Below are positions 142-55,404 of a stretch of 64,000 bases of DNA, piece by piece (the first letter of the stretch is position 1; each line of letters begins with the position of its first letter). The notes beneath the pieces were generated by a model. The model searched no databases. It was not told the DNA's origin and saw only the letters and a list, made by a program, of their open reading frames with translations. The position numbers and the translations under genes were made by a program. Source of the DNA: an uncultured Acidobacteriota bacterium (lineage in GTDB: Bacteria; Acidobacteriota; Vicinamibacteria; Vicinamibacterales; 2-12-FULL-66-21); contig CAVOHG010000002.1 in NCBI GenBank assembly GCA_963695655.1, positions 305,117 to 369,116 of the forward strand, given 5' to 3'.

Positions 142-204
142 CTGAAAGCTGACAGCTGATGTCTGATAGCTGATTGCAGCGCTCTGAGAGCTGAGGTCTG
201 AGTG
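142..204. repeat. Tandem heptamer array, CTGANNG family (9 units)
   Basis: Reads ctgaaag ctgacag ctgatgt ctgatag ctgattg cagcgct ctgagag ctgaggt ctgagtg. The last units supply a GAGG Shine-Dalgarno-like motif and the GTG start of the thiolase at 202. Confidence 0.9.
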
Positions 205-1381
205 CCTGACATCTTCATTCTCGGCGGTGCACGGACGCCGATGGCGGACTACACCGGCAAGCTGAAGGACTTTTCCGCCATCGAGCTCGGCGCCATCGCC
301 GCGCGCGGCGCGATGCAGCGAACGGGTGTCCCGCCGTCCGCAATCGACCACGTCATTTTCGGAAACGTGCTGCAGACCAGCGCCGACGCCGTTTACGGCG
401 CGCGACACGTCGGCCTCAAAGCCGGCGTCCCGGTCGAAGTGCCGGCGCTCACGGTCAACCGCTTGTGCGGCTCCGGCATCCAGGCGGCCATCAGCGGCGC
501 GCAGATGATTCGTCTTGGCGAAGCGGATCTCGTCCTCAGCGGCGGCATGGAGAGCATGAGCCAGGCGCCCCACGTCATCCGCGGCTTGCGCAACGGGCTC
601 CGCCTCGGACAGGGCGAGCTCGAAGACTCATTGTTTTCTGCCCTGCTCGACACGCACTGCGGCTGCACGATGGCGGCGACGGCGGAGAACTGCGCCTCGA
701 CCTACGCGCATCTCGCGCGAGGATCAGGACCGATACGCGATTCGCAGCCAGCAACTGGCGGATGCCGCCTGGCGGGCGGGACGGCTGCGCGAAGAAGTCG
801 TGCCGGTCGAAATCACATCCCGCAAGGGGGTCGAGGTGTTCGAGAAGGACGACCACATGCGCCCGGATACGACGCTCGAGGGGCTGGCGAAGCTCCCCGC
901 CGCCTTCAGCAAGAACGGCTGCGTCACGGCTGGAAACGCCTCCGGCATCGTCGACGGCGGCGCCGCGTTGTTGCTCGCCTCGGAGACCGCGGTCCGCGAC
1001 CACGGCATGACGCCGCTCGCGCGCCTGACGCACTGGGCCATCGTCGGCGTCGAACCGACGCTGATGGGGATGGGACCCGTGCCGGCGACGCGGCTCGTGC
1101 TGCAGAAGGCAGGACTCACGCTCGCAGACATCGATCTCATCGAGGTCAACGAGGCTTTCGCGGCGCAATACCTGTCGGTCGAGAAGCAGCTCGGACTCGA
1201 TCGCGAGCGCGTCAACGTCAACGGCGGCGCTATCGCGCTCGGTCATCCTCTCGGAATGACGGGCACCCGCCTTCTGCTCACGCTCGTGCTCGAACTGCGC
1301 CGGCGGGGACTCCGCCGCGGCCTCGCAACCGCCTGCATCGGTGGCGGCCAGGGCATCGCGGCCATCGTCGAGAGGGTGTAG
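202..1381 (+). CDS. Acetyl-CoA C-acetyltransferase (thiolase), frame disrupted near 707
   Basis: N-terminal half in the frame of 202 (MPDIFILGGARTPMADYTG...NRLCGSGIQA). C-terminal half in the frame of 800 (...NVNGGAIALGHPLGMTG...ACIGGGQGIAAIVERV). Removing one nt at about 707 gives ...AENCASTYGISREDQDRYAIRSQQ. Length is 3n+1. Confidence 0.9.
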
Positions 1382-1386
1382 CCGGT

Positions 1387-1521
1387 AGCTCTCAGCTGTC
1401 AGCTTTCAGACGTCAGCGACTGACTACTGCGACCGGCTACTGCCTCGGCCTGAACGGAGCTTACCGGATTAGGGACGGAAAGCTACTGACAGCTGATAGC
1501 TGACAGCTGACAGCTGAGAAC
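1387..1521. repeat. Inverted heptamer blocks (NNNTCAG at 1387-1429, CTGANAG at 1481-1521)
   Basis: Left block agctctcagctgtcagctttcagacgtcag is the reverse orientation of right block ctgacagctgatagctgacagctgacagctgagaac. It lies between convergent genes and could form a long imperfect hairpin. Confidence 0.85.
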
Positions 1522-2568
1522 TACCCTTGAAGCAACCGCACGATTGCATCCCCCGCCGCTGTCGTGCCGAGCGTCCCGCCGATGTCGGTCGTGCCATGGC
1601 CAGCTTGCACCGCCGCGGCAACGGCGGCCTCGATCGCATCGGCTTCCGCCTTCAATCCGGACGTCTCGAGCATCAGCGCGGTCGAGAGGATGGCGCCGAA
1701 GGGATTGGCGACGTTCTTTCCGGCGAGCTTCGGGGCAGAGCCGTGGACCGGCTCGAACATCGAGGTCCGGCCCGGATGGATATTTCCTGAAGCCGCCATC
1801 CCGAGCCCCCCCTGGAGCGCAGCACCCAGGTCGGTCACGATGTCGCCGAACAGGTTGTTCGTGACGATCACCTGAAACTGTCCGGGGTCGAGGACCATGA
1901 ACATCGCGAGTGCGTCGACGTAGTAGTGCGTCGCCTCGATGCCGGGATACTCAGGCGCGATGTCTTTGAAGACACGCTGCCATAGCGCGTGACCGTGCGT
2001 CATCGCGTTGCTCTTGTCCGTCATGCACACTTTCGTCAGGCCGCGCGCTCGGGCGAACTCGAACGCGTGCCGGACGATCCGGTGCACGCCCTTCCACGTG
2101 TTCACTTCCTCCTGGATGGCAATCTCGTCTTCGGTCCCGGGCTTGAACCGGCCGCCGACGCCGACATACAGGCCCTCGGTGTTCTCGCGGAAGACTACGA
2201 AGTTGACGTCCGCGTGTCGTGCGTCCTTTCAGCGGGCACAGCCGTTCGTGCAGGAGCCTGATCGGGCGGTAGTTCACGTAGAGATCGAGCTCGAACCGGG
2301 TGCCGAGCAGGATGTCGCGCGCGTGCCGATTGTCGGGCACCCGCGGATCGCCGAGCGCGCCGATGAAGACCGCATCGAACTGCCGCAGCCGGTCGTAGCC
2401 GTCCGGCGGGATCGTGACACCGGTCTCGAGAAAGTAGTCCGCGCTCCACGGCAGCGGCTCGAGATCGAACGTCCGCCCGAACCGCTCGCCCACCGCGCGC
2501 AGTACTTTCACCGCTTCAGCGGTGACCTCTTTTCCGATGCCGTCACCCGCGATGGTCGCTATTCGCAC
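1521..2568 (-). CDS. Isocitrate/isopropylmalate dehydrogenase family enzyme (tartrate/D-malate dehydrogenase-like), frame disrupted near 2225
   Basis: N-terminal part MRIATIAGDGIGKEV...YVNYRPIRLL and C-terminal part ...NLFGDIVTDLGAALQGGLGMAASGN...FEPVHGSAPKLAGKNVANP lie in two frames. Deleting one nt near 2225 gives LCPLKDARHADVNFVVFRENTEG. Length is 3n+1. Confidence 0.85.
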
Positions 2569-2570
2569 TA

Positions 2571-2785
2571 CAGCTCCCAGCTTCCGGCTGCCAGCTTCCA
2601 GCTAAATCCTCGACCGCTCACAACTGCAGCGCGAACCAGTCTAGCTGCAAGCTGGAAGGTAGGACGTGAGACCTGTGATGTCAGCCCGGGACGCAGGCGC
2701 ACAGCCGTGTCCGAAAACCTGGGAGCCGGAAGCTGGAAGCGGGAAGCCAAAGTCTGAGACTGAGAGCTGACAGCTGACAGCTGAA
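2571..2785. repeat. Heptamer blocks AGCTNCC (2571-2603), inverted GGAAGCN (2721-2748) and CTGANAG (2751-2785)
   Basis: Reads cagctcccagcttccggctgccagcttccagct, then gggagccggaagctggaagcgggaagcc, then agtctgagactgagagctgacagctgacagctgaa. Confidence 0.8.
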
Positions 2786-3985
2786 TGCCTCGTCACAGTC
2801 GCCTCGACGGCTATCGCCATCCCCATCCCGCCGCTGACGCAGAGCGTCGCCAATCCTCGACGCGCCTTGCGCCGGAGCATCTCATGGACGAGGGTCACGA
2901 CGATCCGCGTCCCGGTACAGCCGATCGGATGACCGAGGGCGATGGCGCCGCCGTTGACGTTCAGCTTCTCTGACGGGATCGGTTCGTCCCGAAGCACCGC
3001 GAGCACCTGCGGAGCGAAGGCTTCGTTCAACTCGAACAGATCGAAATCGGCGAGCGAGAGCCCGGTGCGCGCGAAGAGCTTGCGCATGGCGGGGACGGGA
3101 CCGATTCCCATGATCCGCGGATCCACTCCCGCGGAAGCCCAGCCGATGATCCGCGCCAGCGGCGTGACGCGGTCGGTCGCGGCTCGTGCGGCACTCATGA
3201 GCACCACGGCCGCGCCGCCGTCGGTGATCCCGGATGACGTGCCCGCGGTGATAATCCCCCCGGGGAACACCGGCGGAAGCTTCTCGAGCGCATCGAGGGT
3301 GGTGTCGGGCCGCGGATGCTCGTCCACCTCCACGAGGACGACCTGGCCTTTCCGGTCCGTGATCGTCACGGGCGCCAGCTCGCTCACGAATCGGCCCTCG
3401 GCAATCGCTGCGCCGGCGCGCCGCTGCGTCTCGAGCGCGTAGGCATCCGACGCTTCCCGCGTGATGCCGTACCGCCGCGCCAGCTCCTCCCCCGTCTCGC
3501 CCATGATCTGTCCGGACAACGAGCACGTGAAGCCGTCGCGATACATCGCGTCGACGAACGTGAAGTTGCCCATGCGATGGCCCCACCGCGCATCCTCGGC
3601 ATCGACCAGGTACGGCATCCGGCTCATCGACTCGATCCCGCCAGCGACGACCACGTCCGCCTCGCCGAGCATGATCGCCTGCGCACCCGACGCGATCGAC
3701 TGCATCCCTGAAGCGCACGCCTTGTTGATCGTGTACGCCGGCACCTCGTCCGGCAGCCCCGCCCGTCGTCCCACCTGTCGTCGCCGGATTCGGACCAGAA
3801 CCGGCCTGCCGGGCGTGCCCGATGAGCACGTCGTCCACCTGCGCCCCGTCGACGCCGGCGCGCTCGAGCGCGGCGCGGACCGCTACCGCACCGAGCTCCG
3901 CGGGGTGGACGTTCCGAAACGCGCCTCCGTACCGTCCGATCGGTGTCCTCGCCGCGCCCACGATGACGACGTCCGAAGTAATCAC
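2641..3985 (-). CDS. Acetyl-CoA acetyltransferase (thiolase II), frame disrupted near 3780; 3' end uncertain
   Basis: N-terminus MITSDVVIVGAARTPIGRYGGAF...GHARQAGSGPNP, then in another frame ...GRRAGLPDEVPAYTINKACASGMQSI...NVNGGAIALGHPIGCTGTR...CVSGGMGMAIAVE. One extra nt sits near 3780. The last 50 or so codons (2641-2790) run through heptamer repeats, so the true stop may be near 2790. Confidence 0.85.
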
Positions 3986-3999
3986 GGGGTGATCATATC

Positions 4000-4221
4000 G
4001 GGATTGGGGATTGGGGATTAGGGATCAGGATCTCGCCTGCCACGCCGAAGCTCGCGAGAGCGAAGGCGGGGGACTCGGGGTTCGGGGTTCGGGGTTCGGG
4101 TTCGAGGCCGAGGTTCCGGCTCGGGAAGCTCTACCAACTGGCTACTAAAGCCGCTTCACTTGAAGCCTCGTCGAAGGATCCGGAAGGAGGAAACTGAGAG
4201 CTGAGAGCTGAGCACTGAGGG
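4000..4221. repeat. Composite heptamer region: GGGATTG (4000-4030), GGGGTTC (4068-4107), CTGAGAG (4191-4221)
   Basis: Reads gggattggggattggggattagggatcagga, then gggggactcggggttcggggttcggggttcgggttcgagg, then aaactgagagctgagagctgagcactgaggg. The G-rich strand is the + strand. Confidence 0.85.
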
Positions 4222-4225
4222 CTAT

Positions 4226-4424
4226 TTGGTTCGTCCCTGCCTGCTGGCGTTTCGTCCCTGTGAGCGGTTTCGTCCCACAATCCATCACTTTGGATTCAAA
4301 AACCCGTATTTCAGGGACGAATGAACCAAAGACAGACGCTAAATGCTTGATTCCAATGGTGCTCAGATGTCCCGTCCCCGGGCATATTCCGTGCTATATA
4401 GTCCCGTAGCTGGGACCGTCCCAG
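4226..4424 (+). promoter_or_regulatory. Cluster of GTCCC/GGGAC motifs with a 15-nt perfect palindrome next to a -10-like box, upstream of the TonB receptor
   Basis: TTCGTCCC direct repeats at 4230-4239, 4251-4260 and 4268-4277. Inverted copy cagggacgaa at 4312-4321. gtcccgtcccc at 4369-4379. TATAGT at 4397-4402. Perfect palindrome ctgggaccgtcccag at 4410-4424. Confidence 0.4.
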
Positions 4425-8376: not shown

Positions 8377-8533
8377 CAGTACAGTCACCAGTAGCCAGTG
8401 CCCCAGTCGCCAGTGCCCTCAGGTATCGCGCCGCCAGTGCCCCAGTAGCCAGTCGCCAGCGCCCAGAGTCAGTCGTGCTGGCTCGCGGACTGGAACTACT
8501 GGCTACTGGTTACTGGTTACTGGCGACTGGCAG
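8377..8533. repeat. Inverted heptamer blocks CCAGTNG (8387-8470) and CTGGYTA (8498-8533)
   Basis: Reads caccagtagccagtgccccagtcgccagtgccc...cccagtagccagtcgccag, then ctactggctactggttactggttactggcgactggcag. It lies between convergent genes. The last 7 codons and the stop of the kinase lie in the right block. Confidence 0.85.
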
Positions 8534-10972
8534 AATCACAGTACGTGATGAGTGATGAGTGATTCCTCGAGTCCCAGCGCTGGCCAGCAACGCGTGAAGG
8601 TCGGCGGCGCTGAACGGCTTCACGAGCACCGGAATGTCGCGAAGCAGTCCGTCACCTTCCAGCGTCGAGCGGTCTCCAGTGATGAACACGAAGCACTGCG
8701 CAAGCTCCGGATGCCGTGCCATGATCGTCCGGTAAAGATCCACCCCGTTCGACGTCGGCATTCGCACATCGCAGAGGACGAGCGCCAGTGATGTCGCCTC
8801 GGTGATCGCGAGCGCCGCTTCGGCGGTCTCCGCCTCGAGCACATCGAATCCTCGCCGTTCGAGGAGTCGCGACAGCAGTTTCCGGATCGGCGCCTCGTCG
8901 TCGACGATGAGCACGTGGCGCGACCGCGACGAGGACGCCATCGTCATGCGCGCCGGCGCCCCGGCGGCCGGCAGCGCCAGCCGGAAGCAGGCGCCCGGCC
9001 CGGAGTGGCACAGCGTGAGCGAGCCTCCGTGCGCCGCGGCGATTCCGTGGGAAATCGAGAGACCCAGCCCGGTCCCCTGCCCGACGTCCTTGGTCGTGAA
9101 AAATGGCTCGAAGATTCTCCCCCGCATCTGCGCACTGACCCCGGGCCCGTCGTCCGCCACTTCGACGATGTGGTGGCCTGATTCGGTAAGGCTGCGGATG
9201 GTGATCGTGCCACCGACTTCGGCCGAGAGCATCGCCTGCTCGGCGTTCAGGATCAGGTTCAGGATGATCTGCTGAATCTCTTCGCGGTTGACGACAACCG
9301 GCGCCGGCGCGGCCTGCAGCTCGGTCGTCAGTGTGATGTTCCGCTGCTGCAGGTGGTAGCCCCTGAGCTCGACGACCGAACGGACGATGTCGTTGAGGTC
9401 GGCGGTCGAGCGATCGGGAGCGCTGCGACGGACGAATGACAGCAGGTTCCTGACGATCTGCCCCGCGCGCGACGCTTCCCGGCGGACGACTTCGAGATCG
9501 CGACGGGAGCCCTGGTCCGGACGGTCCTCGAGGAGCAGTTCGACCGATCCGATGATCGTCTGGAGCGGATTGTTGATTTCGTGGGCGACTCCGGCCACGA
9601 GCTCGCCGATCGCCGAGAGCCGCTCGCTGTGCACGAGCTGATCCCGCAGCTTGAGCTCCTGGCCGATGTCACGCTCGGCACCGACGAAGTGTGTGATTCG
9701 GCCGCCCGAGTCTCTCAGTGCGACCACCGTGCACGATGCCGGGAAGGTCGAGCCGTCGCGCCGCTGCCGGAGGAGCGTGCCGCGCCAGATGCCGCGATCG
9801 CGGACCTCGGCGCTGATGTGGGCCGAGAGTGCACCGGACCCGCGGTCGACGAGGTCGGCGAACCCGAGTCCGGCGAGCTCGCGACGCGAATATCCCAGCG
9901 CGCGAACGAACGCGTCATTCGCCAGCTCGAAGCCGCCATCAGCACGCGTGATCAGGATCAGATCCCCCGTCTGCTCGGTGGCGGCCGCCAGCAGCCGCAT
10001 GCGGGCATCCGTCCGCTGCAGCTCGCCTCCCTGCGCGGCGAGACGAAGCGTCAGCACGCCAAGGCCGGCAACGGTCATCAATCCGGTGAGCAGGGCGCGG
10101 AACGAATCGCCTGCGCCGCCGAGCGGCTGGATGAAGAGCGCACCGTAACCGACGAGTGGAATGAGGAAGACCGGCAACGCGGCGAGCGCGGTGTGGCCGG
10201 CTGCCGAGTGGGTCTGAACGGGTTCGGCTCCCTTCGGGGAATCGGGCGCTGCGAGCGCCGCTGCCGCATACAAAAGAAAAGGCGCAATCCACGCCATGTC
10301 GTACAAGGTGCCGGTCTGATACCGGCCGTGCATGATCGCCAGGCTCGTGACGAGTCGGAGGAAGAAGCCAATCCCGGTCGCGATCGCCAGGCAGGCGTAG
10401 GCGCGGTACCACGGGGTGCGCCGTGCGACGATCATCGCCGTCAGCATGCCGATGAAGAGCAGCGCCCGGTGCACCTGCACCAGCTTCAGGAGCATGGCCT
10501 GAGCGTTGGTCGTGCCGGGCACCAGGCTCGGCACGAGCACGAAGTAGGTGTAGATGAAGATCGCGAGCAGGCCGTAGCTGCCGATCACGAGCGCGGCCGG
10601 GCCGACCGCGTCGCGGCGCACCCCGGCATGCGGGCGGGCAAAGAGCGCAATCAGCGGGCCGATGCCGCCGCAGAGGCTGAACAGGGTGTGCCACTGGAGC
10701 CAGGACTCGTGCCGGAGCACGATCATCTCGAAGGACCAGCCGAGGTGCCCGATGATCCAGAGGCCGACCCCGATCGCGAACGTATCCCAGAACAGCCGCT
10801 GGCATCCGGCCCACTGACGGCGCCTGTGTGCGAGGATCGCGCACACCGCGATCGGCGGCAGTATCAGCCCGAACGTGCCGAAGAGAGACAGCAGCATCGG
10901 GTGGCCGCGCAGTGCCCACCCGCCGGCAGCGTACGCCAGGACGTACCCAAGGCCGATCGAAAGATAAAGCAC
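8510..10972 (-). CDS. Hybrid sensor histidine kinase (multi-TM N-domain, PAS, HisKA, HATPase_c, C-terminal receiver)
   Basis: Intact 820-aa ORF. About 8 hydrophobic segments at the N-terminus. H-box VAGVAHEINNPL. ATPase motifs ...DDGPGV...GTGLGLSISHGI. Receiver ...HVLIVDDE...LVLCDVRMP...KPF. Confidence 0.9.
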   Translation of the reverse strand: MLYLSIGLGYVLAYAAGGWALRGHPMLLSLFGTFGLILPPIAVCAILAHRRRQWAGCQRLFWDTFAIGVGLWIIGHLGWSFEMIVLRHESWLQWHTLFSLCGGIGPLIALFARPHAGVRRDAVGPAALVIGSYGLLAIFIYTYFVLVPSLVPGTTNAQAMLLKLVQVHRALLFIGMLTAMIVARRTPWYRAYACLAIATGIGFFLRLVTSLAIMHGRYQTGTLYDMAWIAPFLLYAAAALAAPDSPKGAEPVQTHSAAGHTALAALPVFLIPLVGYGALFIQPLGGAGDSFRALLTGLMTVAGLGVLTLRLAAQGGELQRTDARMRLLAAATEQTGDLILITRADGGFELANDAFVRALGYSRRELAGLGFADLVDRGSGALSAHISAEVRDRGIWRGTLLRQRRDGSTFPASCTVVALRDSGGRITHFVGAERDIGQELKLRDQLVHSERLSAIGELVAGVAHEINNPLQTIIGSVELLLEDRPDQGSRRDLEVVRREASRAGQIVRNLLSFVRRSAPDRSTADLNDIVRSVVELRGYHLQQRNITLTTELQAAPAPVVVNREEIQQIILNLILNAEQAMLSAEVGGTITIRSLTESGHHIVEVADDGPGVSAQMRGRIFEPFFTTKDVGQGTGLGLSISHGIAAAHGGSLTLCHSGPGACFRLALPAAGAPARMTMASSSRSRHVLIVDDEAPIRKLLSRLLERRGFDVLEAETAEAALAITEATSLALVLCDVRMPTSNGVDLYRTIMARHPELAQCFVFITGDRSTLEGDGLLRDIPVLVKPFSAADLHALLASAGTRGITHHSSRTVILPVASNQ

Positions 10973-11035
10973 GATCCGGACACCCTGTCAGATTGGGACG
11001 GCCCCGCCGCCCTCGGAAAGTTGGAGGAAGACTTT

Positions 11036-11191
11036 ACAAGGTTCTGTCAGGTTCTACAAGGTTCTGCAAGGTTCTACCGGGTTCTGCGGGTTCTACCGGG
11101 CGCAGGTTCTACCGGGTTCTGCAGGTTGAACGGTTCTGAGAACTGCAGAACCGGAGAACCTTGCAGAACCCGAGAACCCCGTAGAACCCTA
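11036..11191. repeat. GGTTCTNC direct repeats (period 9-10) followed by inverted GNAGAACC copies
   Basis: Reads aaggttctgtcaggttctacaaggttctgcaaggttctaccgggttctgcgggttctaccggg...cggttctgagaactgcagaaccggagaaccttgcagaacccgagaaccccgtagaaccctag. Confidence 0.85.
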
Positions 11192-12704
11192 GATCTCTTC
11201 GTGATCGATCTGCGCCCGCTGGAGCTTGCCGCTGAAGTCGATGTAGATCGACTTCCACTCGGAGAAGACGTCGAGCGCAGCGACACCGGCTTCCCGGTGC
11301 CCGTTCCCGGTGTTCTTCGTGCCCCCGAAGGGGAGGTGGACTTCGGCGCCGATCGTAGGGGCGTTCACGTAGAAGATGCCGGTGTAAAGATCGCGCATTG
11401 CCGAAAAGGCGCGGTTGATGTCCTGCGTGTAGATTGACGCCGACAGGCCATACTCGACGTTGTTGCCGATGTCGACGGCCTCTTCGAGCGATCGGCACGG
11501 AATCACCGACACCACCGGCCCGAAGATCTCTTCCTGCGCAATCCTCATCGTCGGCTTCACGTCGGTGAAGATCGTGGGCTCGTGGAAGTAACCGCGCGCG
11601 AACGCACCCTTGTCGAGCCGATGGCCGCCGCAGGCAAGGGTCGCCCCTTCGTCTCGTCCGATCTGCACGTACTTCATGACCGTCTGCAACTGCGCGTCGC
11701 TGTTCGACGGGCCAACCTGGGTCGCCGGCATCCAGACCGTTGCCGACGACGAGCGCCTGAGCGCGGGCGACGAACTGGGAGACGAACGCGCCGTAGACCT
11801 TCTCGTGCACCACCACCCGGCTCGCGGCGGTGCAGCGCTGCCCCGCCGTCCCGAACCCGCCCCAGAGGCAGCCGTCGACGGCAAGCTCCAGGTTCGCGTC
11901 GTCCATGATCATGATGACGTTCTTGCCCCCCATCTCGAGGTGGACTTTCTTGAACGTCGGAGCCGCGGCCTGGTTGACGATCCGGCCGACTCGCGTCGAC
12001 CCGGTGAACGAGACGACGCGAACTGACGGACTGGTGGTGAGCGGCGTGCCGACCTCTTCCCCGTCGCCGGTGACCATGTTGACGACGCCTTTCGGGATGC
12101 CGGCGTCCTCGAGCACCTTGACGAAGTTCCACGCCGACAGCGGCGTTTGCGATGCCGGCTTGAACACCACGGTGTTGCCGCAGACGAGTGCCGGGATGAT
12201 CTTCCACGAGGGGATCGCCATCGGGAAGTTCCACGGCGTGATGATCGAGCACACGCCAAGCGGCTGCCGCACCGACATCGCAAACTTGTTGCGCAGTTCG
12301 GACGGCACGGTCTGCCCGAACATCCGGCGGCCCTCACCGGCCATGTAGAAGGTCATGTCGATGGCCTCCTGCACGTCGCCCTCGGTCTCGCTCAGAACCT
12401 TCCCCATCTCACGCGTCATGTCGCGCGCGTACTGACCCTTGCGGTCGGCAATCAGCTGCGCGGCCTTGAACAGCATCTCAGCCCTGACGGGCGCAGGCAC
12501 GAGGCGCCAGGTTTCGTAGGCGCGCGTCGCCGCCTCGATCGCCGCCTCGACATCGGCGCGGCCCGAATCCTGAAAGAGGCCGATGAGGTCGTCCGTGTCA
12601 GCCGGGTTGCGGTTTTCGAACGTACGACCGGTCCCGGAAGGAACCCAGCGCCCGTCGATGTAGTTGTTGTAGGTGGTGGGAGCCGCAGGTGCCATGACCC
12701 GCAA
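11189..12704 (-). CDS. NAD(P)-dependent aldehyde dehydrogenase, frame disrupted near 11723
   Basis: ...[30 protein letters not shown]...[16 protein letters not shown]...[12 protein letters not shown], then in a second frame ...[10 protein letters not shown]...YGLSASIYT...[16 protein letters not shown]. Frames join as GLDAGTQVGPS. Length is 3n+1. Confidence 0.9.
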
Positions 12705-17495: not shown

Positions 17496-17530
17496 AACTC
17501 AGAAGTCTAAGTCGTCACCATCACCGCGTC

Positions 17531-19586: not shown

Positions 19587-19587
19587 C

Positions 19588-35631: not shown

Positions 35632-35648
35632 CGATTGCCGCCGAATTT

Positions 35649-38431: not shown

Positions 38432-38442
38432 TGCCCGGATCA

Positions 38443-39092: not shown

Positions 39093-39698
39093 ATGGCAAC
39101 GTCTAAACAGACGATGGCTCCATCCAGGAGCCCCGAAGTTGCCGGACGCGCGGCCGACATGGCGCTCGTGGAACGGTGCCGTGCGGGGGACCTCGCCGCG
39201 TTCGAGGAGTTGTATGCTGCCCACGCCGGGAAGCTGTTCAGCGTGGCGTGCCGGATGCTTGGCAACCAGTCGGATGCCGAAGACATCCTGCAGGAGATTT
39301 TCCTGTCGGCGCACCGCAAGCTCGACGGCTTTCGCGGCGACGCGGCGCTCGGCACGTGGCTGTACCGGCTGGCGATGAACCAGTGCCTCGACCATCTGAG
39401 GAGCCGGTCGACTCGCACCAACCAGCTCACCGACGTGCTGGACGACGAGCCGGCTCTCTACGAGGCGGGCGGTGGTGGGCTCGCGGAACAGACCGTCGCG
39501 AAGATGGACATCGAACGTGCGCTCGCGCAGCTCCCGGCCGGCTGCCGGGCGGCGTTCGTGCTGCACGACGTCGAAGGTCTGGAGCACCGCGAGGTCGCCG
39601 ATGCGCTCGGGATCGCGGAAGGCACCTCGAAGTCGCAGGTGCACAAGGCAAGGCTGCGGCTGCGTGCGCTGCTCGGCGCGCGAGGCCGCGCAACGTAG
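39093..39698 (+). CDS. ECF-type RNA polymerase sigma-70 factor
   Basis: Region 2 ...AEDILQEIFLSAHRKLDGFRGDAALGTWLYRLAMNQCLDHLR. Region 4 ...AFVLHDVEGLEHREVADALGIAEGTSKSQVHKARLRL. Confidence 0.9.
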   Translation: MATSKQTMAPSRSPEVAGRAADMALVERCRAGDLAAFEELYAAHAGKLFSVACRMLGNQSDAEDILQEIFLSAHRKLDGFRGDAALGTWLYRLAMNQCLDHLRSRSTRTNQLTDVLDDEPALYEAGGGGLAEQTVAKMDIERALAQLPAGCRAAFVLHDVEGLEHREVADALGIAEGTSKSQVHKARLRLRALLGARGRAT

Positions 39699-39746
39699 CA
39701 CGTGCACGTAGCACGTAGCACGTAGCACGTAGCACGTAGCACGTGA
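39695..39746. repeat. Heptamer array GTAGCAC (about 7 units)
   Basis: Reads gtagcac gtgcac gtagcac x5 gtgag. The sigma factor stop codon TAG (39696-98) is part of the first unit. Confidence 0.9.
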
Positions 39747-39756
39747 GTAAAACGAC

Positions 39757-41652: not shown

Positions 41653-41690
41653 CCGGTTCGTCGCCTCGCGAAAGCTGTCGTCCCCCGAAA

Positions 41691-41735
41691 CACGTCGCAC
41701 GTAGGACGTGGCACGTAGCACGTAGCACGTATGAC
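41691..41735. repeat. Heptamer array GCACGTN (about 6 units)
   Basis: Reads cacgtcgcacgtaggacgtggcacgtagcacgtagcacgtatgac. Confidence 0.85.
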
Positions 41736-41979
41736 AGCCAGCCCGACTGTCGCATTTCGCAACGCCGCTCCCACGCGAGCCGAACGCGTCGACTCCCCTG
41801 GCGCATGAAAACGGCAGCGTTTTACCGCAAATCGATGGCACCCTGATTGCTTTTCTCACTTGCACGACGCCAGTCTGCCCTGTTGCACCTATAATTGCCG
41901 GGGCAGGAGGACACTTCCTCCGGGTTCGGGACTTACCCGGGCGGATTCCAGATTCGACCCTGTCAGGAGAATTGTCGTT

Positions 41980-47415: not shown

Positions 47416-47570
47416 TGGAACCGGGCCTCGAACCATCGACACCTGCAACCTAGAACCGATACCTAGAACGTAGAACCCGTAGAGCGTAAAACGTGACCTA
47501 GAACTCGTAAAACCCTTAGCACCTAAAACCCGACCTAGAACTCCTATAACCCCTAGAACCTAAAACCCTT
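47416..47570. repeat. Degenerate TAGAACN/TAAAACN repeat tract inside the mre-mrd operon
   Basis: Reads ...aacctagaaccgatacctagaacgtagaacccgtagagcgtaaaacgtgacctagaactcgtaaaacccttagcacctaaaacccgacctagaactcctataacccctagaacctaaaaccc. Confidence 0.8.
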
Positions 47571-48983: not shown

Positions 48984-49138
48984 CTCCAGTTTCCAGCTAA
49001 CCAGTAACCAGTTTCCAGTAACCAGAATCCAGTTCCCAGGCAGTCAGCTTGGTGGCGATCCGCGGGATCCGACGTGCCGTGGATCACGCCGGATCCGCTC
49101 GCGGAGAGCACTGGTTACTGGCGACTGGAGACTGGCGA

Positions 49139-49140
<2 letters not shown>
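48984..49140. repeat. Inverted heptamer blocks CCAGTNN (48984-49040) and CTGGNNA (49109-49140) flanking a GGATCC-containing palindromic centre
   Basis: Reads ctccagtttccagctaaccagtaaccagtttccagtaaccagaatccagttcccagg, then cactggttactggcgactggagactggcgact. It lies between mreB and mreC. Confidence 0.85.
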
Positions 49141-50164
<1,024 letters not shown>

Positions 50165-53465: not shown

Positions 53466-53470
53466 AGAAG

Positions 53471-53550
53471 AGTCGCAGTCACCAGTTCCCAGTCGCCAGT
53501 TAGTCACCAGTTCTGCTCCTGGCTACTGGTTACTGGCTACTGGCAACTAG
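53471..53550. repeat. Inverted heptamer blocks CCAGTNN (53471-53513) and CTGGYTA (53519-53550)
   Basis: Reads agtcgcagtcaccagttcccagtcgccagttagtcaccagttc, then ctggctactggttactggctactggcaactag. It lies between convergent ppiD and sppA. The sppA stop is inside the right block. Confidence 0.85.
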
Positions 53551-55292
53551 TGGATGAAGACATTCGGCATAATCGCTAACGGCTCTCCCCTTCGGAAGAT
53601 CCGGAGCGGCGCCGTCAGCAGCTCGAGCGCCCGCGGGTCGCGGAATCCAAGCATCGCCGAGAGACCGCTGGTGCTGTCGGCGCCGCCGAACGGGTTCTTG
53701 ACGATGTCGTAGATCGACTTCCTGCCCGGAAACACGACCAGCTCCACTTCGCTGCCTGCGGGGATCTTCGCGCGTTGCCTGGCGACGACGAGCGCGCGTT
53801 CGAGACCGCCGAGTTCGTCGACGAGACCGATGTCCTTCCCTTGCTTCCCCGTCCAGACGCGACCCTGCGCGACGGCGTCGATCCGCTGCGGCGTGGTGTG
53901 TCGGCCCTCGGCAGCCTTCTCGACGAAGGTGTCGTAGGTCGCCTGCATCTGTTCCTGGACCTTGGCGCGCTCTTCGGGCGTGAACACGTGTACCGGCGAG
54001 TAGAGCCCGGCATAGCGGCCGCTGGTGACCCCTTCGACGTTCATGCCGAGCTTTTTCAGTGTGCCGTCGACCACGAACTTGAGCATCACCACCCCGATCG
54101 ACCCGGTGAGCGTCGCGGGCTCCGCGACGATCGAGTGCGCTGCCATCGCGATGTAGTAGCCGCCCGATGCCGCGACGTCCGACATCGAGGCAATCACCGG
54201 CTTCACCCCGCGCGTCAGCATCACTTCGCGCCAGATGATGTCTGAGGCGATTGCGGATCCTCCCGGGCTGTCGACTCGCAGGACGATCGCTTTGATCGAA
54301 TTGTCCGCGCGCGCCTTCCGCAGGTAGTCAATCATCGTGTCTGAACCGACGACTTGACCCGACGGTGCGTCGTAGCTGCTCTGACCCGATGCAATCACGC
54401 CCGACGCGTAGATGATCGCGATCCGCGGCCCGCGATTGAGCCCCAGCGAAGTCGGCGATATGCGGCGGTAGTCCGCCTCGGTGACGAATCTCGCCGTCCC
54501 GTTCGCGAGCTTGACCTTGTCGTCCAGTTCATCCTCGTACGCCACATCGTCCACCAGCCCCGCGCGGACGGCGTCCTCGGGCAGGAAGGGGCCGTGATCG
54601 ACGAGGCCGCGGATGTCCTTTTCTGATTTGTGGCGGCCGGCGGCCAGACCGCGAATCAGCTGCTCGTACATGTCGCCGTTCAGTGAACGCGCCATTTCGA
54701 GATGCGCCGGGGTGTAAGTGGTCTCGGTGAACGTGTTGGACGCGGTCTTGTACTGGCCGATGTGCAGCGTGTCGGGGTAGGCGCCGATCTTGTCGAGCGT
54801 GCCGCGCAGGAACAGCTCGTAGCTCGCCATGCCGGTGAGGTCGAGCGACGCCGTCGGCATCAGGAACACCTTGTCGCAGGCGCTCGCGAGGTAGAACTCC
54901 TGCTCGCCGCCGTATTCGAGATAGCCGACGATTGGCTTGCCGGATGTCTTGAAGTCCGTGATCGCGTCGCGGACCTCCTGCACCTTGCCCCACAGCGCCG
55001 CCGCGCCGGAGGGCCGGACGATGACGCTCGAGATCCGGCGATCGACCTTTGCCTTCCGCAGCGCCTCGACGAGAGATCGCACCGTCGCCGGGGCCTCGAA
55101 GAACTGCCCGATCACGCCGCCGGGCTCGGTCTCCTGGAGGTCGCCGCCGATCCGCAGCACCAGCGTCGAGTTGCCCGCGACCTGCGGCTGCCGTCCGACG
55201 ATGGCGGCCATGAGGATGAGACCCGCGGCCGACACCACGATGGCGGCGATGATGAGTCCGAGCACGATACCGACGCCGCGCCTGAGTGCCAC
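53547..55292 (-). CDS. sppA: Signal peptide peptidase SppA (67K type, two S49 domains)
   Basis: Intact 581 aa. N-terminal TM helix. ...KAIVLRVDSPGGSAIASD...IASMSDVAASGGYYIA... Confidence 0.9.
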   Translation of the reverse strand: MALRRGVGIVLGLIIAAIVVSAAGLILMAAIVGRQPQVAGNSTLVLRIGGDLQETEPGGVIGQFFEAPATVRSLVEALRKAKVDRRISSVIVRPSGAAALWGKVQEVRDAITDFKTSGKPIVGYLEYGGEQEFYLASACDKVFLMPTASLDLTGMASYELFLRGTLDKIGAYPDTLHIGQYKTASNTFTETTYTPAHLEMARSLNGDMYEQLIRGLAAGRHKSEKDIRGLVDHGPFLPEDAVRAGLVDDVAYEDELDDKVKLANGTARFVTEADYRRISPTSLGLNRGPRIAIIYASGVIASGQSSYDAPSGQVVGSDTMIDYLRKARADNSIKAIVLRVDSPGGSAIASDIIWREVMLTRGVKPVIASMSDVAASGGYYIAMAAHSIVAEPATLTGSIGVVMLKFVVDGTLKKLGMNVEGVTSGRYAGLYSPVHVFTPEERAKVQEQMQATYDTFVEKAAEGRHTTPQRIDAVAQGRVWTGKQGKDIGLVDELGGLERALVVARQRAKIPAGSEVELVVFPGRKSIYDIVKNPFGGADSTSGLSAMLGFRDPRALELLTAPLRIFRRGEPLAIMPNVFIH

Positions 55293-55331
55293 GAGGATCC
55301 CTCCTGTCCGACGATGGGTCGGTCGGGATCG

Positions 55332-55337
55332 AGTATA
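55332..55337 (-). promoter_or_regulatory. -10-like TATACT box upstream of sppA, preceded by a CTGATAG array
   Basis: The minus strand reads ...ctgatagctgatagctgagttgctgcgagcTATACTcgatcc...aggagggatcctcGTG. CTGATA sits 17 nt upstream of the box. Confidence 0.3.
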
Positions 55338-55348
55338 GCTCGCAGCAA

Positions 55349-55404
55349 CTCAGCTATCAGCTATCAGCCGTCAGCAATCAGCTTTCAGTAGTCAGCAATC
55401 AGTT
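55349..55404. repeat. Heptamer array NTCAGCN (reverse orientation of CTGANNG, 8 units)
   Basis: Reads ctcagct atcagct atcagcc gtcagca atcagct ttcagta gtcagca atcagtt. Confidence 0.9.

What the first reader, a model, noticed from the sequence alone, without database searches (positions are those of the whole stretch)
142..55404. A multi-family heptanucleotide tandem-repeat system occupies nearly every native intergenic spacer
At least 16 spacers carry tandem 7-nt units from a small set of families.
- CTGANAG: 142-204, 1481-1521, 2751-2785, 4191-4221, 35583-35631, 38545-38650; reverse orientation at 1387-1429 and 55349-55404.
- GGGRYTC/GGGGTTC: 4000-4107, 19588-19637, 35297-35441, 38443-38525.
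- CCAGTNG: 8387-8533, 19638-19671, 19721-19758, 48984-49140, 53471-53550.
- GCACGTN: 17531-17565, 39695-39746, 41691-41735.
- AGCTNCC: 2571-2748.
- TAGAACN: 47416-47570, with a 9-10-nt GGTTCTNC variant at 11036-11191.

The period is 7, not a multiple of 3, and the arrays sit outside the conserved core of every recognised protein; they touch coding sequence only at start codons and at C-terminal tails next to stop codons. The only analogue I know is the STRR heptamer repeats of heterocystous cyanobacteria. I am not aware of an equivalent description for a high-GC genome of this type.
Basis: partly seen in the sequence, partly recalled or inferred. Interest (0 to 1): 0.8.

Follow-up and report, generated by a model that had tools for sequence, protein, structure and literature searches.

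The report
Seven-base repeat arrays filling gene spacers
The gaps between genes in this soil acidobacterium are packed with fast-changing runs of 7-base repeats, many paired into long hairpins; this kind of repeat is already known from Xanthomonas, cyanobacteria and Beggiatoa but not from this lineage.

Summary
Period-7 self-similarity covers 1141 nt in 23 segments, against about 7 nt in simulations, and no period other than 14 and 21 is enriched. 83% of it lies in the 14% of the window that looks non-coding. Sixteen of about 25 non-coding segments in the high-GC part carry arrays; two lower-GC blocks carry none.

The window comes from a Vicinamibacterales (Acidobacteriota) metagenome genome. 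Independent assemblies of relatives carry arrays at the same spacers, so this is not an assembly artefact.

The arrays behave as hypermutable long simple-sequence repeats:
- Unit number differs between strains about 95% identical.
- Units are copied from local sequence, often the stop-codon end of a gene.
- Spacers of 0-26 nt in distant relatives have grown to 60-390 nt here.

At the mreB-mreC spacer the arms co-vary across 31 species while the sequence changes.

The claim that no high-GC analogue exists is wrong. GGGNATC repeats (Xanthomonas, Nostoc) and TAACTGA repeats (Beggiatoaceae) match two of the families. I file this as a new member of a known kind. One feature stays unexplained: a 42:2 polarity of the TCAG...CTGA hairpins, shared with cyanobacteria.

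The parts
139..204 (+). Direct CTGANAG array running into the GTG start (202) of thiolase gene 1
   Evidence: no significant fold, z -0.1. The thiolase N-terminus is identified.
1384..1523 (.). Inverted pair (CTNTCAG)n 1384-1430 and (CTGANAG)n 1478-1523, between the convergent thiolase stop (1381) and isocitrate/isopropylmalate dehydrogenase stop (1521)
   Evidence: MFE -71.9, z -6.7; 19-28 arm-to-arm pairs; gene identities.
2568..2794 (.). Inverted pair AGCTNCC (2568-2607) and GGNAGCT (2715-2750), plus a CTGANAG array at 2751-2794. It lies between the end of thiolase 2 and the dehydrogenase start (2568), both on the minus strand.
   Evidence: (z -5.2). In one search the Thiolase_C domain ends about 50 codons before the ORF stop, so the ORF tail runs through the arrays.
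3992..4226 (+). G-rich arrays GGGATTG (3992-4035) and GGGGTTC (4062-4110), then CTGAGAG (4181-4226). They sit in the divergent spacer between the thiolase 2 start (3985, minus strand) and the TonB-receptor-like gene (4513, plus strand).
   Evidence: G4 motifs at 4000-4023 and 4068-4094; gene identities. The relative L082 has a 130-nt C-rich array abutting the thiolase ATG.
8382..8569 (.). Inverted pair CCAGTNG (8382-8475) and CNACTGG (8490-8535), plus GTGATGA x2.7 (8545-8563). It lies between a plus-strand gene end near 8375 and the histidine-kinase stop (8510); the kinase tail takes its stop from the array.
   Evidence: (z -3.0). One search shows the same spacer in L082 (CCAGT type) and L083 (AGCTTCC type).
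11035..11195 (.). Inverted pair of 8-10-nt units, GGTTCTNC (11035-11130) and AGAACCNN (11139-11195), between the aldehyde dehydrogenase stop and the histidine-kinase start (minus strand)
   Evidence: z -4.6; 43-47 arm-to-arm pairs. In one search, L082 has 3+3 units and L083 has none.
17521..17574 (+). Direct GCACGTN array. In gene sense it reads (NACGTGC)n and starts at the TAA stop of an ABC ATPase gene.
   Evidence: One search shows the same family at the same spacer in L082 (3 units) and L083 (about 7 units).
19575..19758 (.). G-rich GGGACTC/GGGATTC array (19575-19637, plus strand), which is C-rich in the leader that abuts the YjbQ start at 19586. Next to it is a CCAGTNN/NNACTGG inverted pair (19638-19678 and 19714-19758) overlapping the TsaD tail.
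   Evidence: 28 arm-to-arm pairs; G4 motif at 19588-19611.
35285..35447 (+). Longest array: (GGGACTC)4 followed by (GGGGTTC) about 16 times. It begins about 30 nt after the HEAT-repeat gene stop (35265), with the G-rich strand as the sense strand.
   Evidence: four G4 motifs. This spacer is 386 nt here and about 14-26 nt in L009, L012 and L019.
35572..35634 (+). Direct CTGGTAN to CTGATAG array, 17 nt upstream of the ATG (35649) of an HD-GYP-like regulator
   Evidence: Strain L001 has 7 more units and identical flanks.
38433..38650 (+). Composite of GGGRYTC arrays (38433-38537) and CTGANAG/CTGATTG arrays (38545-38650). It runs from 12 nt after a stop (38431) into the ATG (38648) of an MGMT-DNA-binding-domain gene.
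   Evidence: The stretch is absent in L002, about 50 nt in L003 and about 270 nt in L001.
39693..39751 (+). (GCACGTA)x7.6 filling the whole spacer between the ECF sigma factor and its anti-sigma gene. The sigma stop codon (TAG) lies inside the array.
   Evidence: L001 has 2 fewer units. Distant relatives have spacers of 0-20 nt or overlapping genes.
41684..41740 (+). Direct GCACGTN array about 110 nt after the DUF4097 gene stop. It is part of an insertion of about 80 nt that L002 and L003 lack.
47416..47570 (-). Degenerate GGTTCTA/GGGTTTTA array (in gene sense) with a 37-nt higher-order unit, between the mreD stop and the mrdA start. It is seeded from mreD's terminal cggttcTAG.
   Evidence: L008 has a single copy, L006 has 2, L007 about 8, and L001 one extra 37-nt unit.
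48984..49145 (.). Inverted pair CCAGTNN (48984-49040) and NNACTGG (49105-49145) around a unique central hairpin. It fills the mreB-mreC spacer from stop to start.
   Evidence: z -5.0; 25 pairs; arm co-variation across 31 species.
53470..53555 (.). Inverted pair CCAGTNN and CNACTGG between the convergent PpiD-like stop (53465) and SppA stop (53547)
   Evidence: z -3.0; 22-27 pairs.
55345..55404 (-). Direct array that reads CTGANNG in SppA sense, 53 nt upstream of the SppA start (55292)
35480..35573 (+). Three copies of a REP-like palindrome, GTAGCTTCCGCCTTCAGGCGGAAG, lying between the two arrays of this spacer. This is a separate repeat class that co-occurs with the arrays.
55421..55589 (+). 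Three full copies and one partial copy of the same REP-like palindrome, next to the 55345-55404 array
   Evidence: Copy number differs in L001.

Best explanation
These are heptanucleotide long simple-sequence repeats (LSSRs) of a Vicinamibacterales genome.

How they arise. They are born and turn over in place by slipped-strand mispairing or unequal exchange, a process that in this lineage strongly favours 7-nt units.
- A local heptamer, often the one holding a gene's stop codon, is duplicated in tandem.
- The array then grows, shrinks and homogenises quickly.
- It survives only outside reading frames, because 7 is not a multiple of 3.
- The net effect is to inflate spacers that were once tight.

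Structural consequences. There are two layers.

(a) Hairpins. About half of the arrays are the two arms of an inverted pair. The transcript (or single-stranded DNA) can therefore fold into an 18-47 bp stem placed directly after a stop codon and often up to the next start codon.
- The arms change together, so base pairing is maintained, either by selection or by template switching between arms.
- I infer that these stems act on RNA as 3'-end, processing or stability elements and as gates on the downstream start. They lack the U-tract of classical terminators.
- The tested precedent is the H. influenzae hmw leader, where a heptamer array forms one arm of a long hairpin cut by RNase III.

(b) Unpaired arrays. 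These come in two kinds.
- G-tract units (GGGRYTC) are capable of forming G-quadruplexes. They sit downstream of stops on the sense strand, or upstream of starts on the antisense strand, as in Xanthomonas and Nostoc.
- CTGA-core units sit just before start codons in sense orientation and place UGA in all three frames, as with TAACTGA repeats.

Shown: the arrays exist and are significant, they lie in non-coding sequence, they vary between strains, they originate in place, their arms co-vary, and their geometry is as described.

Inferred: slippage as the process, action at the RNA level, and any effect on expression.
For: Significance and period.
- Only periods 7, 14 and 21 are enriched.
- In 1.28 Mb from 80 related genomes, arrays with at least 3 copies number 75 at period 7, 24 at period 8, 23 at period 9, and 1, 2 and 1 at periods 5, 6 and 10.

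Non-coding location. 83% of period-7 bases lie in the 14% of the window that looks non-coding.

Hypermutability.
- Against a strain about 95% identical (L001), all but three of the 22 indels of at least 4 nt fall in arrays or REP copies.
- Whole units are gained or lost (+7 units at 35633, -2 units at 39731, +37 nt at 47517), while the flanks stay identical.

Origin in place.
- The mreD end cggttcTAG is single-copy in L008, 2 copies in L006, about 8 in L007 and a long array here.
- The sigma-factor end cgtTAGc, the ABC ATPase end TAAcgtgc and the aldehyde dehydrogenase end TAGggttct seed their own arrays.

Spacer inflation.
- HEAT to HD-GYP: 386 nt here against about 14-26 nt in distant relatives.
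- Sigma to anti-sigma: 61 nt here against 0-20 nt.

Not sequence-specific overall. There are 64 distinct units among 91 arrays in relatives.

Absent from likely acquired DNA. No arrays occur in 26-33 kb, which carries an integrase and has lower GC, or beyond tRNA-Leu at 57-64 kb.

Hairpins.
- Fold z-scores run from -3.0 to -6.7 for S2, S3, S5, S6, S14 and S15.
- Arm-to-arm pairing is 18-47 bp.
- In relatives, 58 of 122 arrays have an inverted partner within 300 nt, against 0 of 122 for a reversed-sequence control.
- At mreB-mreC in 31 species, the best 21-nt complementarity between arms has a median of 17 within a locus and 12 between loci (Mann-Whitney p = 6e-16).
- The change from TCAG to CCAG in all left-arm units of the window is matched by CTGA to CTGG in all right-arm units.
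- Classical U-tract terminators occur only in array-free spacers, at 7563-7588 and 13646-13678.
- Sense-strand RNA folds are more stable than antisense folds in 67 of 91 operon spacers (p = 7e-7).

Not an artefact. Arrays sit at the same spacers in independent assemblies, some apparently long-read (L001, L082) and some short-read (L002-L008, L083).

Precedents. PMC4692102, PMC4679880 and PMC12721329.
Against: - Slippage was not observed directly and no raw reads were available. The window and L001 carry many 1-nt indels and frameshifted genes, so exact unit counts may contain sequencing error.
- A purely random-seed model does not explain why a few unit types recur in many spacers of one genome. 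It also does not explain why CTGA/TCAG is in 27 of 91 units when 5.9 are expected.
- It does not explain the 42:2 polarity of TCAG...CTGA hairpins.
- RNA-level function rests on geometry and on a sense-over-antisense stability bias that G+T skew could also produce.
- The hairpins have no U-tract, and there are no expression data.
- Arm co-variation could come from template switching rather than from selection.
Confidence: 0.6

Rival explanations
1. Pure mutational debris. The arrays and the inverted pairs are by-products of slippage plus template switching at quasi-palindromes. They have no role in RNA or DNA function and are merely tolerated in spacers.
For: - Turnover is rapid and arrays are lost in close relatives.
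- Spacers have inflated relative to tight ancestral gene junctions.
- Units are very diverse.
- The two arms often differ in length, for example 3 against 8 units in L083.
- Neighbouring genes are ordinary housekeeping genes.
Against: - A hairpin persists at mreB-mreC in about 31 species while its sequence is replaced.
- Hairpins and classical terminators occupy different spacers.
- Folds are more stable on the sense strand.
- The CTGA-core hairpins show strong polarity.
Confidence: 0.22
2. A sequence-specific regulatory network. A protein, or the ribosome, recognises particular heptamers such as CUGANAG in leaders or GGGRYTC at the DNA level, and the arrays act as arrays of binding sites that co-regulate the adjacent genes.
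For: - A few unit types recur in many spacers.
- The CTGA core is over-represented with z = 9.2 across the lineage.
- All 8 CTGA-core arrays in the window point toward the adjacent gene boundary: 5 read CTGA before a start codon and 3 read TCAG after a stop.
- Some array-abutted starts lack a Shine-Dalgarno sequence (38648, 35649, 19586).
- A similar proposal has been made for TAACTGA repeats (PMC4679880).
Against: - Orthologous spacers swap families or lack arrays altogether in relatives at 80-95% identity.
- There are 64 distinct units among 91 arrays.
- The adjacent genes share no functional theme.
- No candidate binding protein was identified.
Confidence: 0.1
3. Mobile elements. The repeat hairpins are MITE- or REP-like non-autonomous elements that insert into spacers and bring their arms with them.
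For: - The inverted-repeat architecture has a fixed polarity.
- The hairpins co-occur with a genuine REP-like palindrome whose stem contains the AGCTTCC unit.
- The whole mreB-mreC spacer appears replaced between strains about 95% identical.
- The element type is found in both Acidobacteriota and Cyanobacteria.
Against: - Loops are unique to each locus and range from 0 to 268 nt.
- I saw no conserved termini or target-site duplications.
- Arm lengths vary by whole units.
- Several arrays can be traced to the local gene end.
- The window encodes no transposase or RAYT gene that I detected.
Confidence: 0.06
4. Assembly or sequencing artefact. The arrays were produced by the assembler or by long-read errors.
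For: The window and L001 show many single-base indels and broken reading frames, which is typical of unpolished long-read assemblies.
Against: Arrays occur at the same spacers in at least six independent assemblies from different samples and pipelines, including short-read MAGs. They also occur in 120 or more JGI metagenome contigs.
Confidence: 0.02

Closest known systems
Heptanucleotide long simple-sequence repeats (LSSRs) of prokaryotic genomes (Mrazek, Guo and Shah 2007, as summarised in PMC4679880 and PMC4692102)
   Same: - Tandem units of 5-11 nt with a sharp preference for 7.
- Found in large, high-GC, non-pathogen genomes.
- Sporadic distribution across phylogeny.
- Polymerase slippage proposed as the cause.
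   Different: - The lineage (Vicinamibacteria) was not part of that survey as far as I could see.
- Local density is about 230-360 arrays per Mb in this window.
- The survey papers I could read do not analyse the inverted-pair architecture.
GGGNATC / GGGGA(C/T)T quadruplex-forming heptamer repeats of Xanthomonas and Nostoc (Rehm et al. 2015, PMC4692102)
   Same: - Heptamer units carrying a G-tract. GGGGATT itself occurs at 3998-4025 and 38455-38473.
- About 90% of repeats are intergenic.
- They sit within 50 bp after a stop on the coding strand, or before a start on the non-coding strand. All four G-rich spacers here fit this pattern.
- Inverted pairs are frequent.
- Length and sequence vary between close relatives.
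- One host, Xanthomonas, is high-GC.
   Different: - The main units here are GGGGTTC, GGGATTC and GGGACTC rather than GGGAATC.
- There is no preference for four units; copy numbers run from 3.7 to about 20.
- They share spacers with several unrelated unit families.
- G4 formation was not tested.
TAACTGA direct repeats of marine Beggiatoaceae, Cyanobacteria and Bacteroidetes (MacGregor 2015, PMC4679880)
   Same: - The CTGA core. CTGATAG differs by 1 nt from the rotation CTGATAA.
- Forward orientation directly upstream of start codons.
- Stop codons in all three frames in the forward orientation.
- A Shine-Dalgarno sequence is often missing.
- Distribution crosses phyla.
   Different: - The unit is not TAACTGA, and the fifth position varies freely.
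- About half of the arrays here are one arm of a hairpin, whereas only one indirect repeat was reported in the orange Guaymas 'Maribeggiatoa' (BOGUAY) genome.
- Arrays here are longer, up to 15 units.
STRR (short tandemly repeated repetitive) heptamers of heterocystous cyanobacteria (Calothrix; cited in PMC4692102; unit sequences from my own knowledge)
   Same: - Several heptamer families in one genome.
- Intergenic location.
- Function unknown.
   Different: - The STRR1-3 units are not present as arrays here. Only two chance-level CCCCAGT dimers were found.
- The host phylum differs.
H. influenzae hmw1A 5'-UTR (ATCTTTC)n repeat hairpin processed by RNase III (PMC12721329)
   Same: - A heptamer array is transcribed.
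- It forms one arm of a long RNA hairpin next to a start codon.
- Repeat number varies.
   Different: - There, only one arm is a repeat and the partner is a G-rich region.
- That case is a phase-variable adhesin locus in a pathogen.
- Here both arms are arrays, the genes are housekeeping genes, and no RNase III or expression data exist.
REP/BIME extragenic palindromes
   Same: - Intergenic stem-loops placed after stop codons, often in clusters.
- Thought to stabilise upstream mRNA.
- A true REP-like element (GTAGCTTCCGCCTTCAGGCGGAAG) lies beside two of the arrays.
   Different: - REPs have one conserved sequence per family and a 5' GTAG.
- The repeat hairpins have no conserved sequence and their arms are tandem arrays.

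Membership tests
Heptanucleotide LSSR (long simple-sequence repeats) | Head-to-tail iterations of a short unit, longer than chance allows | tested here: met
   1141 nt in 23 segments against 7.4 nt in simulations; TRF output.
Heptanucleotide LSSR (long simple-sequence repeats) | Period 7 dominates over other unit lengths | tested here: met
   In the window only periods 7, 14 and 21 are enriched. In relatives, arrays number 75 at period 7, 24 at period 8, 23 at period 9 and at most 2 at periods 5, 6 and 10.
Heptanucleotide LSSR (long simple-sequence repeats) | Unit number varies between strains | tested here: met
   Window against L001 and L082. Caveat: the window, L001 and L082 look like unpolished long-read assemblies.
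Heptanucleotide LSSR (long simple-sequence repeats) | Generated by replication slippage | not testable with these tools
   Inferred from whole-unit indels and from arrays that can be traced to a single local copy.
GGGNATC-type G4 heptamer repeats (Xanthomonas, Nostoc) | A G-tract of at least 3 in every 7-nt unit, with at least 4 units | tested here: met
   Nine G3+N1-7 x4 motifs, all inside the arrays at 4000-4094, 19588-19611, 35297-35431 and 38443-38494.
GGGNATC-type G4 heptamer repeats (Xanthomonas, Nostoc) | Unit consensus GGGAATC or GGGGA(C/T)T | tested here: inconclusive
   GGGGATT occurs at 3998-4025 and 38455-38473, but the dominant units are GGGGTTC, GGGATTC and GGGACTC.
GGGNATC-type G4 heptamer repeats (Xanthomonas, Nostoc) | Within 50 bp after a stop on the coding strand, or before a start on the non-coding strand | tested here: met
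   35297 lies 32 nt after stop 35265. 38443 lies 12 nt after stop 38431. 3998 lies 13 nt upstream of the minus-strand start at 3985. The array at 19575-19637 abuts the minus-strand start at 19586.
GGGNATC-type G4 heptamer repeats (Xanthomonas, Nostoc) | Forms a quadruplex in vitro | not testable with these tools
   Needs CD spectroscopy of (GGGGTTC)4 in K+.
TAACTGA repeats (Beggiatoaceae, Cyanobacteria, Bacteroidetes) | Unit is TAACTGA | tested here: not met
   Only one dimer within 1 mismatch, at 35596. The units here are CTGANAG, which share only the CTGA core.
TAACTGA repeats (Beggiatoaceae, Cyanobacteria, Bacteroidetes) | Forward orientation immediately upstream of start codons, with stops in all frames | tested here: met
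   Arrays end 0 nt (202), 0 nt (38648), 17 nt (35649), 53 nt (55292) and about 290 nt (4513) from the starts. There is a TGA every 7 nt.
STRR of heterocystous cyanobacteria | Units STRR1 CCCCAGT, STRR2 TTGGTCA, STRR3 CAACAGT (sequences from my own knowledge) | tested here: not met
   No arrays of these units; only two isolated CCCCAGT-like dimers.
Classical intrinsic terminator | GC-rich hairpin followed directly by a U-tract | tested here: not met
   None of the repeat hairpins was called. The two strong calls, 7563-7588 and 13646-13678, are in array-free spacers.
MITE | Conserved internal sequence, defined terminal inverted repeats and target-site duplication | tested here: not met
   In 50 metagenome elements the loops are unique (0-268 nt) and no common termini or duplications were seen.
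REP/BIME | One conserved palindrome per family, with a 5' GTAG | tested here: not met
   The repeat hairpins have no conserved sequence. The separate element GTAGCTTCCGCCTTCAGGCGGAAG does meet this definition.
Phase-variation contingency locus | SSR tied to surface, virulence or restriction genes, switching expression on and off | tested here: not met
   The neighbours are thiolases, mreBCD-mrdA, a sigma/anti-sigma pair, tsaD, ABC transporters, SppA and PpiD. Expression switching was not testable.

The most novel reading that the evidence does not exclude
The TCAG...CTGA repeat hairpin may be a distinct, undescribed class of bacterial intergenic element. It would consist of a stem whose two arms are tandem heptamers that evolve in concert. 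It would have a fixed polarity, 5'-(NNNYCAG)n-loop-(CTGRNNN)n-3', that neither thermodynamics nor gene orientation explains.

The same element type occurs in Acidobacteriota and Cyanobacteria, and the hairpin is kept at a syntenic position (mreB-mreC) across dozens of species. That would point to a dedicated process behind the long-noted but unexplained excess of 7-nt repeats in bacteria. Candidates are a strand- or sequence-specific enzyme, or a ribosome- or RNase-linked selection.
Probability: 0.2. Interest if true: 0.7.

Novelty: new member of a known kind. Interest (0 to 1): 0.45.

Why it matters
The excess of 7-nt tandem repeats in bacterial genomes has been noted since 2007 and has no accepted cause or function. 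This window is an unusually dense example from an abundant but little-studied soil lineage (Vicinamibacteria).

Comparison with about 80 related genomes lets one watch arrays being born from a single heptamer at a gene end. They then expand, swap unit type and inflate operon spacers.

The analysis also gives two handles that can be tested:
- Hairpins whose repeat arms co-vary at a fixed operon position.
- A 42:2 polarity of the TCAG...CTGA elements, shared across phyla.

If the hairpins do act on RNA, they would be a fast-evolving, length-tunable substitute for terminators and intercistronic processing sites. If they do not, the window is still a clear case of mutation-driven growth of non-coding DNA in bacteria. 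It is also a practical warning for MAG assembly and annotation in this group.

Tried and rejected
- **Rfam and tRNA scans.** The only hit was tRNA-Leu; no known RNA family overlaps the arrays.
- **Sigma-70 promoter scan.** No promoter-like sites fall in the arrays and the counts are at or below shuffle expectation. I dropped the idea that the arrays are promoter arrays.
- **Classical terminator scan.** None of the repeat hairpins qualifies.
- **Automatic orientation test in 80 loci.** I ran a rough ORF-based test of array orientation relative to genes. For CTGA-core arrays it was too noisy to use (16, 11, 7 and 13 in the four classes). For G-rich arrays it only suggested the Xanthomonas-type geometry (31 against 16). 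I relied on the manually checked window instead.
- **TAG stop codon as the seed of the TCAG arm.** TAG precedes the arm in only about 8 of 45 metagenome elements, roughly the chance level among NAG (read off).
- **Purine/pyrimidine rule for arm polarity.** Other unit families in relatives mostly carry the purine- or G-rich arm on the 5' side, the opposite of the CTGA family.
- **Coding heptad peptides.** The arrays score as non-coding and no long ORF spans them.
- **Mrazek 2007.** The full text could not be fetched, so I cite it only through the two papers that summarise it.
- **First folding script.** It timed out with dinucleotide shuffles. I re-ran it with mononucleotide shuffles, so the z-scores are approximate.

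Full report

Examples are TCGGGGT x18-20 at 35295-35441, CTGATTG x9.7 at 38581-38648, ACGTAGC x7.6 at 39693-39744 and TCGGGAT x6.4 at 19586-19630.

I ran an independent self-similarity scan that required at least 16 of 21 matches at a fixed lag. Period 7 covers 1141 nt in 23 segments, against a mean of 7.4 nt in 20 second-order Markov simulations. Periods 14 and 21 are also enriched, and the other periods tested up to 15 sit at or near background.

A codon-bias segmentation.4% of the window non-coding-like, and 83% of the period-7 bases fall there.

Sixteen of about 25 non-coding segments in 1-26 kb and 33-57 kb carry arrays. So 'nearly every spacer' is somewhat overstated. There are no arrays in 26-33 kb, which has lower GC, two PEP-CTERM genes and a phage-type integrase at 30889-31698. 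There are none beyond tRNA-Leu at 57342-57427 either.

**2. Source and reliability of the sequence**

The MrdA protein encoded at 45406-47322 has its closest named relatives in Acidobacteriota / Vicinamibacterales MAGs.

Several genes are split by frameshifts: two thiolases, an isocitrate/isopropylmalate dehydrogenase, an aldehyde dehydrogenase, TsaD and a TonB-dependent receptor. The window also differs from a strain about 95% identical by 75 single-base indels in 20 kb. Both look like unpolished long-read assemblies.

The arrays are nevertheless present at the same spacers in independent assemblies:
- L001 and L082, from other ENA samples.
- L002-L008 and L083, which are short-read MAGs.

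An assembly artefact is therefore excluded, although exact unit counts could be slightly off.

**3. How the arrays behave**

*They are hypermutable.* Between the window and L001, all but three of the 22 indels of at least 4 nt lie in arrays or in REP copies. They add or remove whole units while the flanks stay identical. Substitutions are also concentrated inside the arrays.

*They arise in place.*
- The mreD end 'cggttcTAG' is single-copy in L008, two copies in L006, about eight in L007 and a long degenerate array here.
- The sigma-factor end, an ABC ATPase end (TAAcgtgc) and the aldehyde dehydrogenase end (TAGggttct) seed their own arrays.

*They inflate spacers.*
- HEAT to HD-GYP is 386 nt here and about 14-26 nt in distant relatives.
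- Sigma to anti-sigma is 61 nt here and 0-20 nt, or overlapping genes, elsewhere.

*The habit is lineage-wide and unit-agnostic.* In 1.28 Mb around mrdA from 80 species, arrays with at least 3 copies number 75 at period 7, 24 at period 8 and 23 at period 9. There are almost none at periods 5, 6 or 10. Among 91 period-7 arrays there are 64 distinct units.

*Yet there is a preferred core.* CTGA/TCAG occurs in 27 of 91 units when 5.9 are expected (z = 9.2).

**4.

Seven spacers in the window hold inverted pairs of arrays. They fold far better than shuffled sequence and form 18-47 arm-to-arm base pairs:

| Spacer | Window region | Fold z-score |
|---|---|---|
| S2 | 1370-1530 | -6.7 |
| S3 | 2560-2800 | -5.2 |
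| S5 | 8279-8575 | -3.0 |
| S6 | 10973-11200 | -4.6 |
| S8b | 19630-19765 | hairpin seen in the fold; no separate z-score |
| S14 | 48975-49150 | -5.0 |
| S15 | 53460-53560 | -3.0 |

They sit either between convergent stop codons, or run from a stop codon to the next start codon.

In relatives, 58 of 122 arrays have an inverted partner within 300 nt, against 0 of 122 for a reversed-sequence control. Of 25 adjacent array pairs, 16 are inverted and none are direct repeats of the same family.

The mreB-mreC spacer is the clearest case. Most relatives with a long spacer there have a hairpin, but the unit type differs:
- CCAGTNN in the window.
- CTNTCAG in L001, L002, L004, L005 and L080.
- AGCTNCC in L003 and L008.
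- GGTTC in L007.
- 8-10-nt units in L075 and L076.
- A plain palindrome in L019 and L025.

Across 31 species, the best 21-nt complementarity between the two arms has a median of 17 within a locus and 12 between loci (p = 6e-16). In the window, the change from TCAG to CCAG in every left-arm unit is matched by CTGA to CTGG in every right-arm unit. Pairing is therefore maintained while the sequence is free to change.

Two further points bear on function:
- The only classical U-tract terminators, at 7563-7588 and 13646-13678, are in array-free spacers.
- Sense-strand folds are more stable than antisense folds in 67 of 91 operon spacers. This is suggestive of RNA-level constraint, but it is confounded by G+T skew.

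**5. The unpaired arrays**

*G-tract arrays.* All nine plus-strand G4 motifs in the window lie inside these arrays. Each array sits in one of two positions:
- Just upstream of a minus-strand start on the antisense strand (3998 and 19575-19637).

This is the geometry reported for GGGNATC repeats in Xanthomonas and Nostoc (PMC4692102).

*CTGA-core arrays.* They read CTGA in gene sense before five start codons (202, 4513, 35649, 38648 and 55292). They read TCAG in gene sense after three stop codons. This parallels the TAACTGA repeats of Beggiatoaceae, including UGA in all three frames and, at some starts, the lack of a Shine-Dalgarno sequence (PMC4679880).

*GCACGTN arrays.* They fill the sigma/anti-sigma spacer and follow an ABC ATPase stop codon. 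They fold only weakly.

**6. A cross-phylum, polar element**

Of the 89 contigs with enough flanking sequence, the partner arm was distributed as follows:
- 42 carry an inverted (CTNTCAG) partner 5' of the CTGA arm.
- 2 carry it 3' of the CTGA arm.
- 1 carries a partner on both sides.
- 44 have no partner.

The binomial p for 42 against 2 is 1e-10.

The arrangement 5'-(CTNTCAG)n-loop-(CTGANAG)n-3' reads the same from either strand, and it contains the same duplex as the reverse arrangement. Neither gene orientation nor stability can therefore explain the bias.

Loops are unique to each contig, which argues against a MITE.

One hit with 40% GC is cyanobacterial. Its HisS is identical to that of an Oculatellaceae MAG and 94% identical to Crinalium epipsammum. 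The element there lies between the rpsD and moaA stop codons.

All YCAG/CTGR-type hairpins in the window and in the mreB-mreC spacers of relatives have the common polarity. I have no explanation for it.

**7. Interpretation**

The best-supported reading is that these are heptanucleotide LSSRs. They are produced and turned over by slippage-type processes and are confined to non-coding DNA by the frameshift cost of a 7-nt unit.

About half of them form repeat-armed hairpins that are most likely used at the RNA level. Possible roles are 3'-end formation, processing or stability, and occlusion of the downstream start.

The experimentally studied precedent is the H. influenzae hmw leader. There a heptamer array is one arm of a long hairpin cut by RNase III, and the hairpin is also needed for changes in repeat number (PMC12721329).

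Slippage, RNA-level action and any regulatory effect are inferences. I put 0.6 on this combined account.

| Rival explanation | Confidence |
|---|---|
| Pure mutational debris, including hairpins kept by template switching | 0.22 |
| A sequence-specific binding network | 0.10 |
| Mobile elements | 0.06 |
| Assembly or sequencing artefact | 0.02 |

**8. Novelty**

Each feature has a published counterpart:
- Dominance of 7-nt repeats in large genomes, high-GC ones among them (Mrazek 2007, via PMC4679880 and PMC4692102).
- G-rich heptamers with inverted pairs in Xanthomonas.
- CTGA-core heptamers before start codons in Beggiatoaceae and cyanobacteria.
- Several heptamer families in Calothrix.

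I found no description for Vicinamibacteria or Acidobacteria, and no paper containing these unit dimers in a relevant context.

I therefore file the finding as a new member of a known kind. Two results go beyond what I found in the searchable literature and deserve follow-up: the arm co-variation at a syntenic operon position, and the 42:2 polarity shared across phyla.

Noticed in passing
window 35480-35573 and 55421-55589: A REP-like palindrome, GTAGCTTCCGCCTTCAGGCGGAAG (a 5' GTAG plus an 8-bp stem), occurs in six full copies in two clusters, all on the plus strand. Copies also occur in L006, L001 and L082, and copy number differs between strains. Its stem contains the AGCTTCC heptamer that also forms arrays. 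No RAYT-type transposase was seen in the window.
   Followed up: partly
window 202-1381, 1521-2568, 2641-3985, 4513-8278, 11189-12704, 19655-20878: Many housekeeping genes are split across reading frames: two thiolases, an isocitrate/isopropylmalate dehydrogenase, a TonB-dependent receptor, an aldehyde dehydrogenase and TsaD. The window also differs from a strain about 95% identical by 75 single-base indels in 20 kb. This most likely reflects unpolished long-read assembly errors rather than pseudogenes.
   Followed up: partly
window 26000-33000: A lower-GC block (60-62%) holds two PEP-CTERM proteins (26721-27590 and 27620-28162), a phage-type integrase (30889-31698) and many short ORFs with no family match. 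It contains no heptamer arrays and is probably an acquired island.
   Followed up: partly
window 57342-57442: tRNA-Leu(CAG) is followed by an exact tandem duplication of its 16-nt 3' end (CAAATCCTCTCTTCCG at 57409-57424 and 57425-57440). This looks like an attachment-site scar. The region downstream (57-64 kb) has lower GC, encodes response regulators and oxidoreductases, has no arrays, and is not syntenic with L001.
   Followed up: partly
window 44163-44292 (minus strand): The rodA-rng spacer contains a conserved small ORF (starting MALLLFVLFACWLAW, hydrophobic) that is kept in L001-L003 and L006-L008. This spacer has no arrays in those genomes. More distant relatives lack the ORF and often carry repeat hairpins there instead.
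   Followed up: no
window 41875-41906 and 37159-37187: Two short non-repeat motifs are conserved across L001-L003 inside otherwise variable spacers. One is ctgccctgTTGCACcTATAATtgccggggcag, a small palindrome enclosing a TATAAT box, upstream of the gene at 41980. The other is cAGCTATACTctccgggcgtgaccgaagg, upstream of the DUF6010 gene. AGCTATACT also occurs upstream of SppA at 55332-55340. These are candidate promoter or leader elements.
   Followed up: no
window 56117-56328: Period-9, -18 and -36 repeats (unit CCGCCGGGA) lie inside the cytochrome-c-like gene at 55633-57159. These are in-frame Pro/Gly-rich coding repeats and are unrelated to the heptamer arrays.
   Followed up: no
window 7563-7588 (+) and 13646-13678 (-): The only two strong classical intrinsic terminators (GC-rich stem plus U-tract) lie in spacers without heptamer arrays. 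The one at 13646-13678 is conserved in L083.
   Followed up: partly
L147 8714-8741 (JAESGO010000136.1, cyanobacterial; Oculatellaceae/Crinalium-like): A (CTNTCAG)4-loop-(CTGATAG)5 hairpin of the same type as in the window sits between the convergent stops of rpsD and moaA in a cyanobacterial contig of 40% GC.
   Followed up: partly
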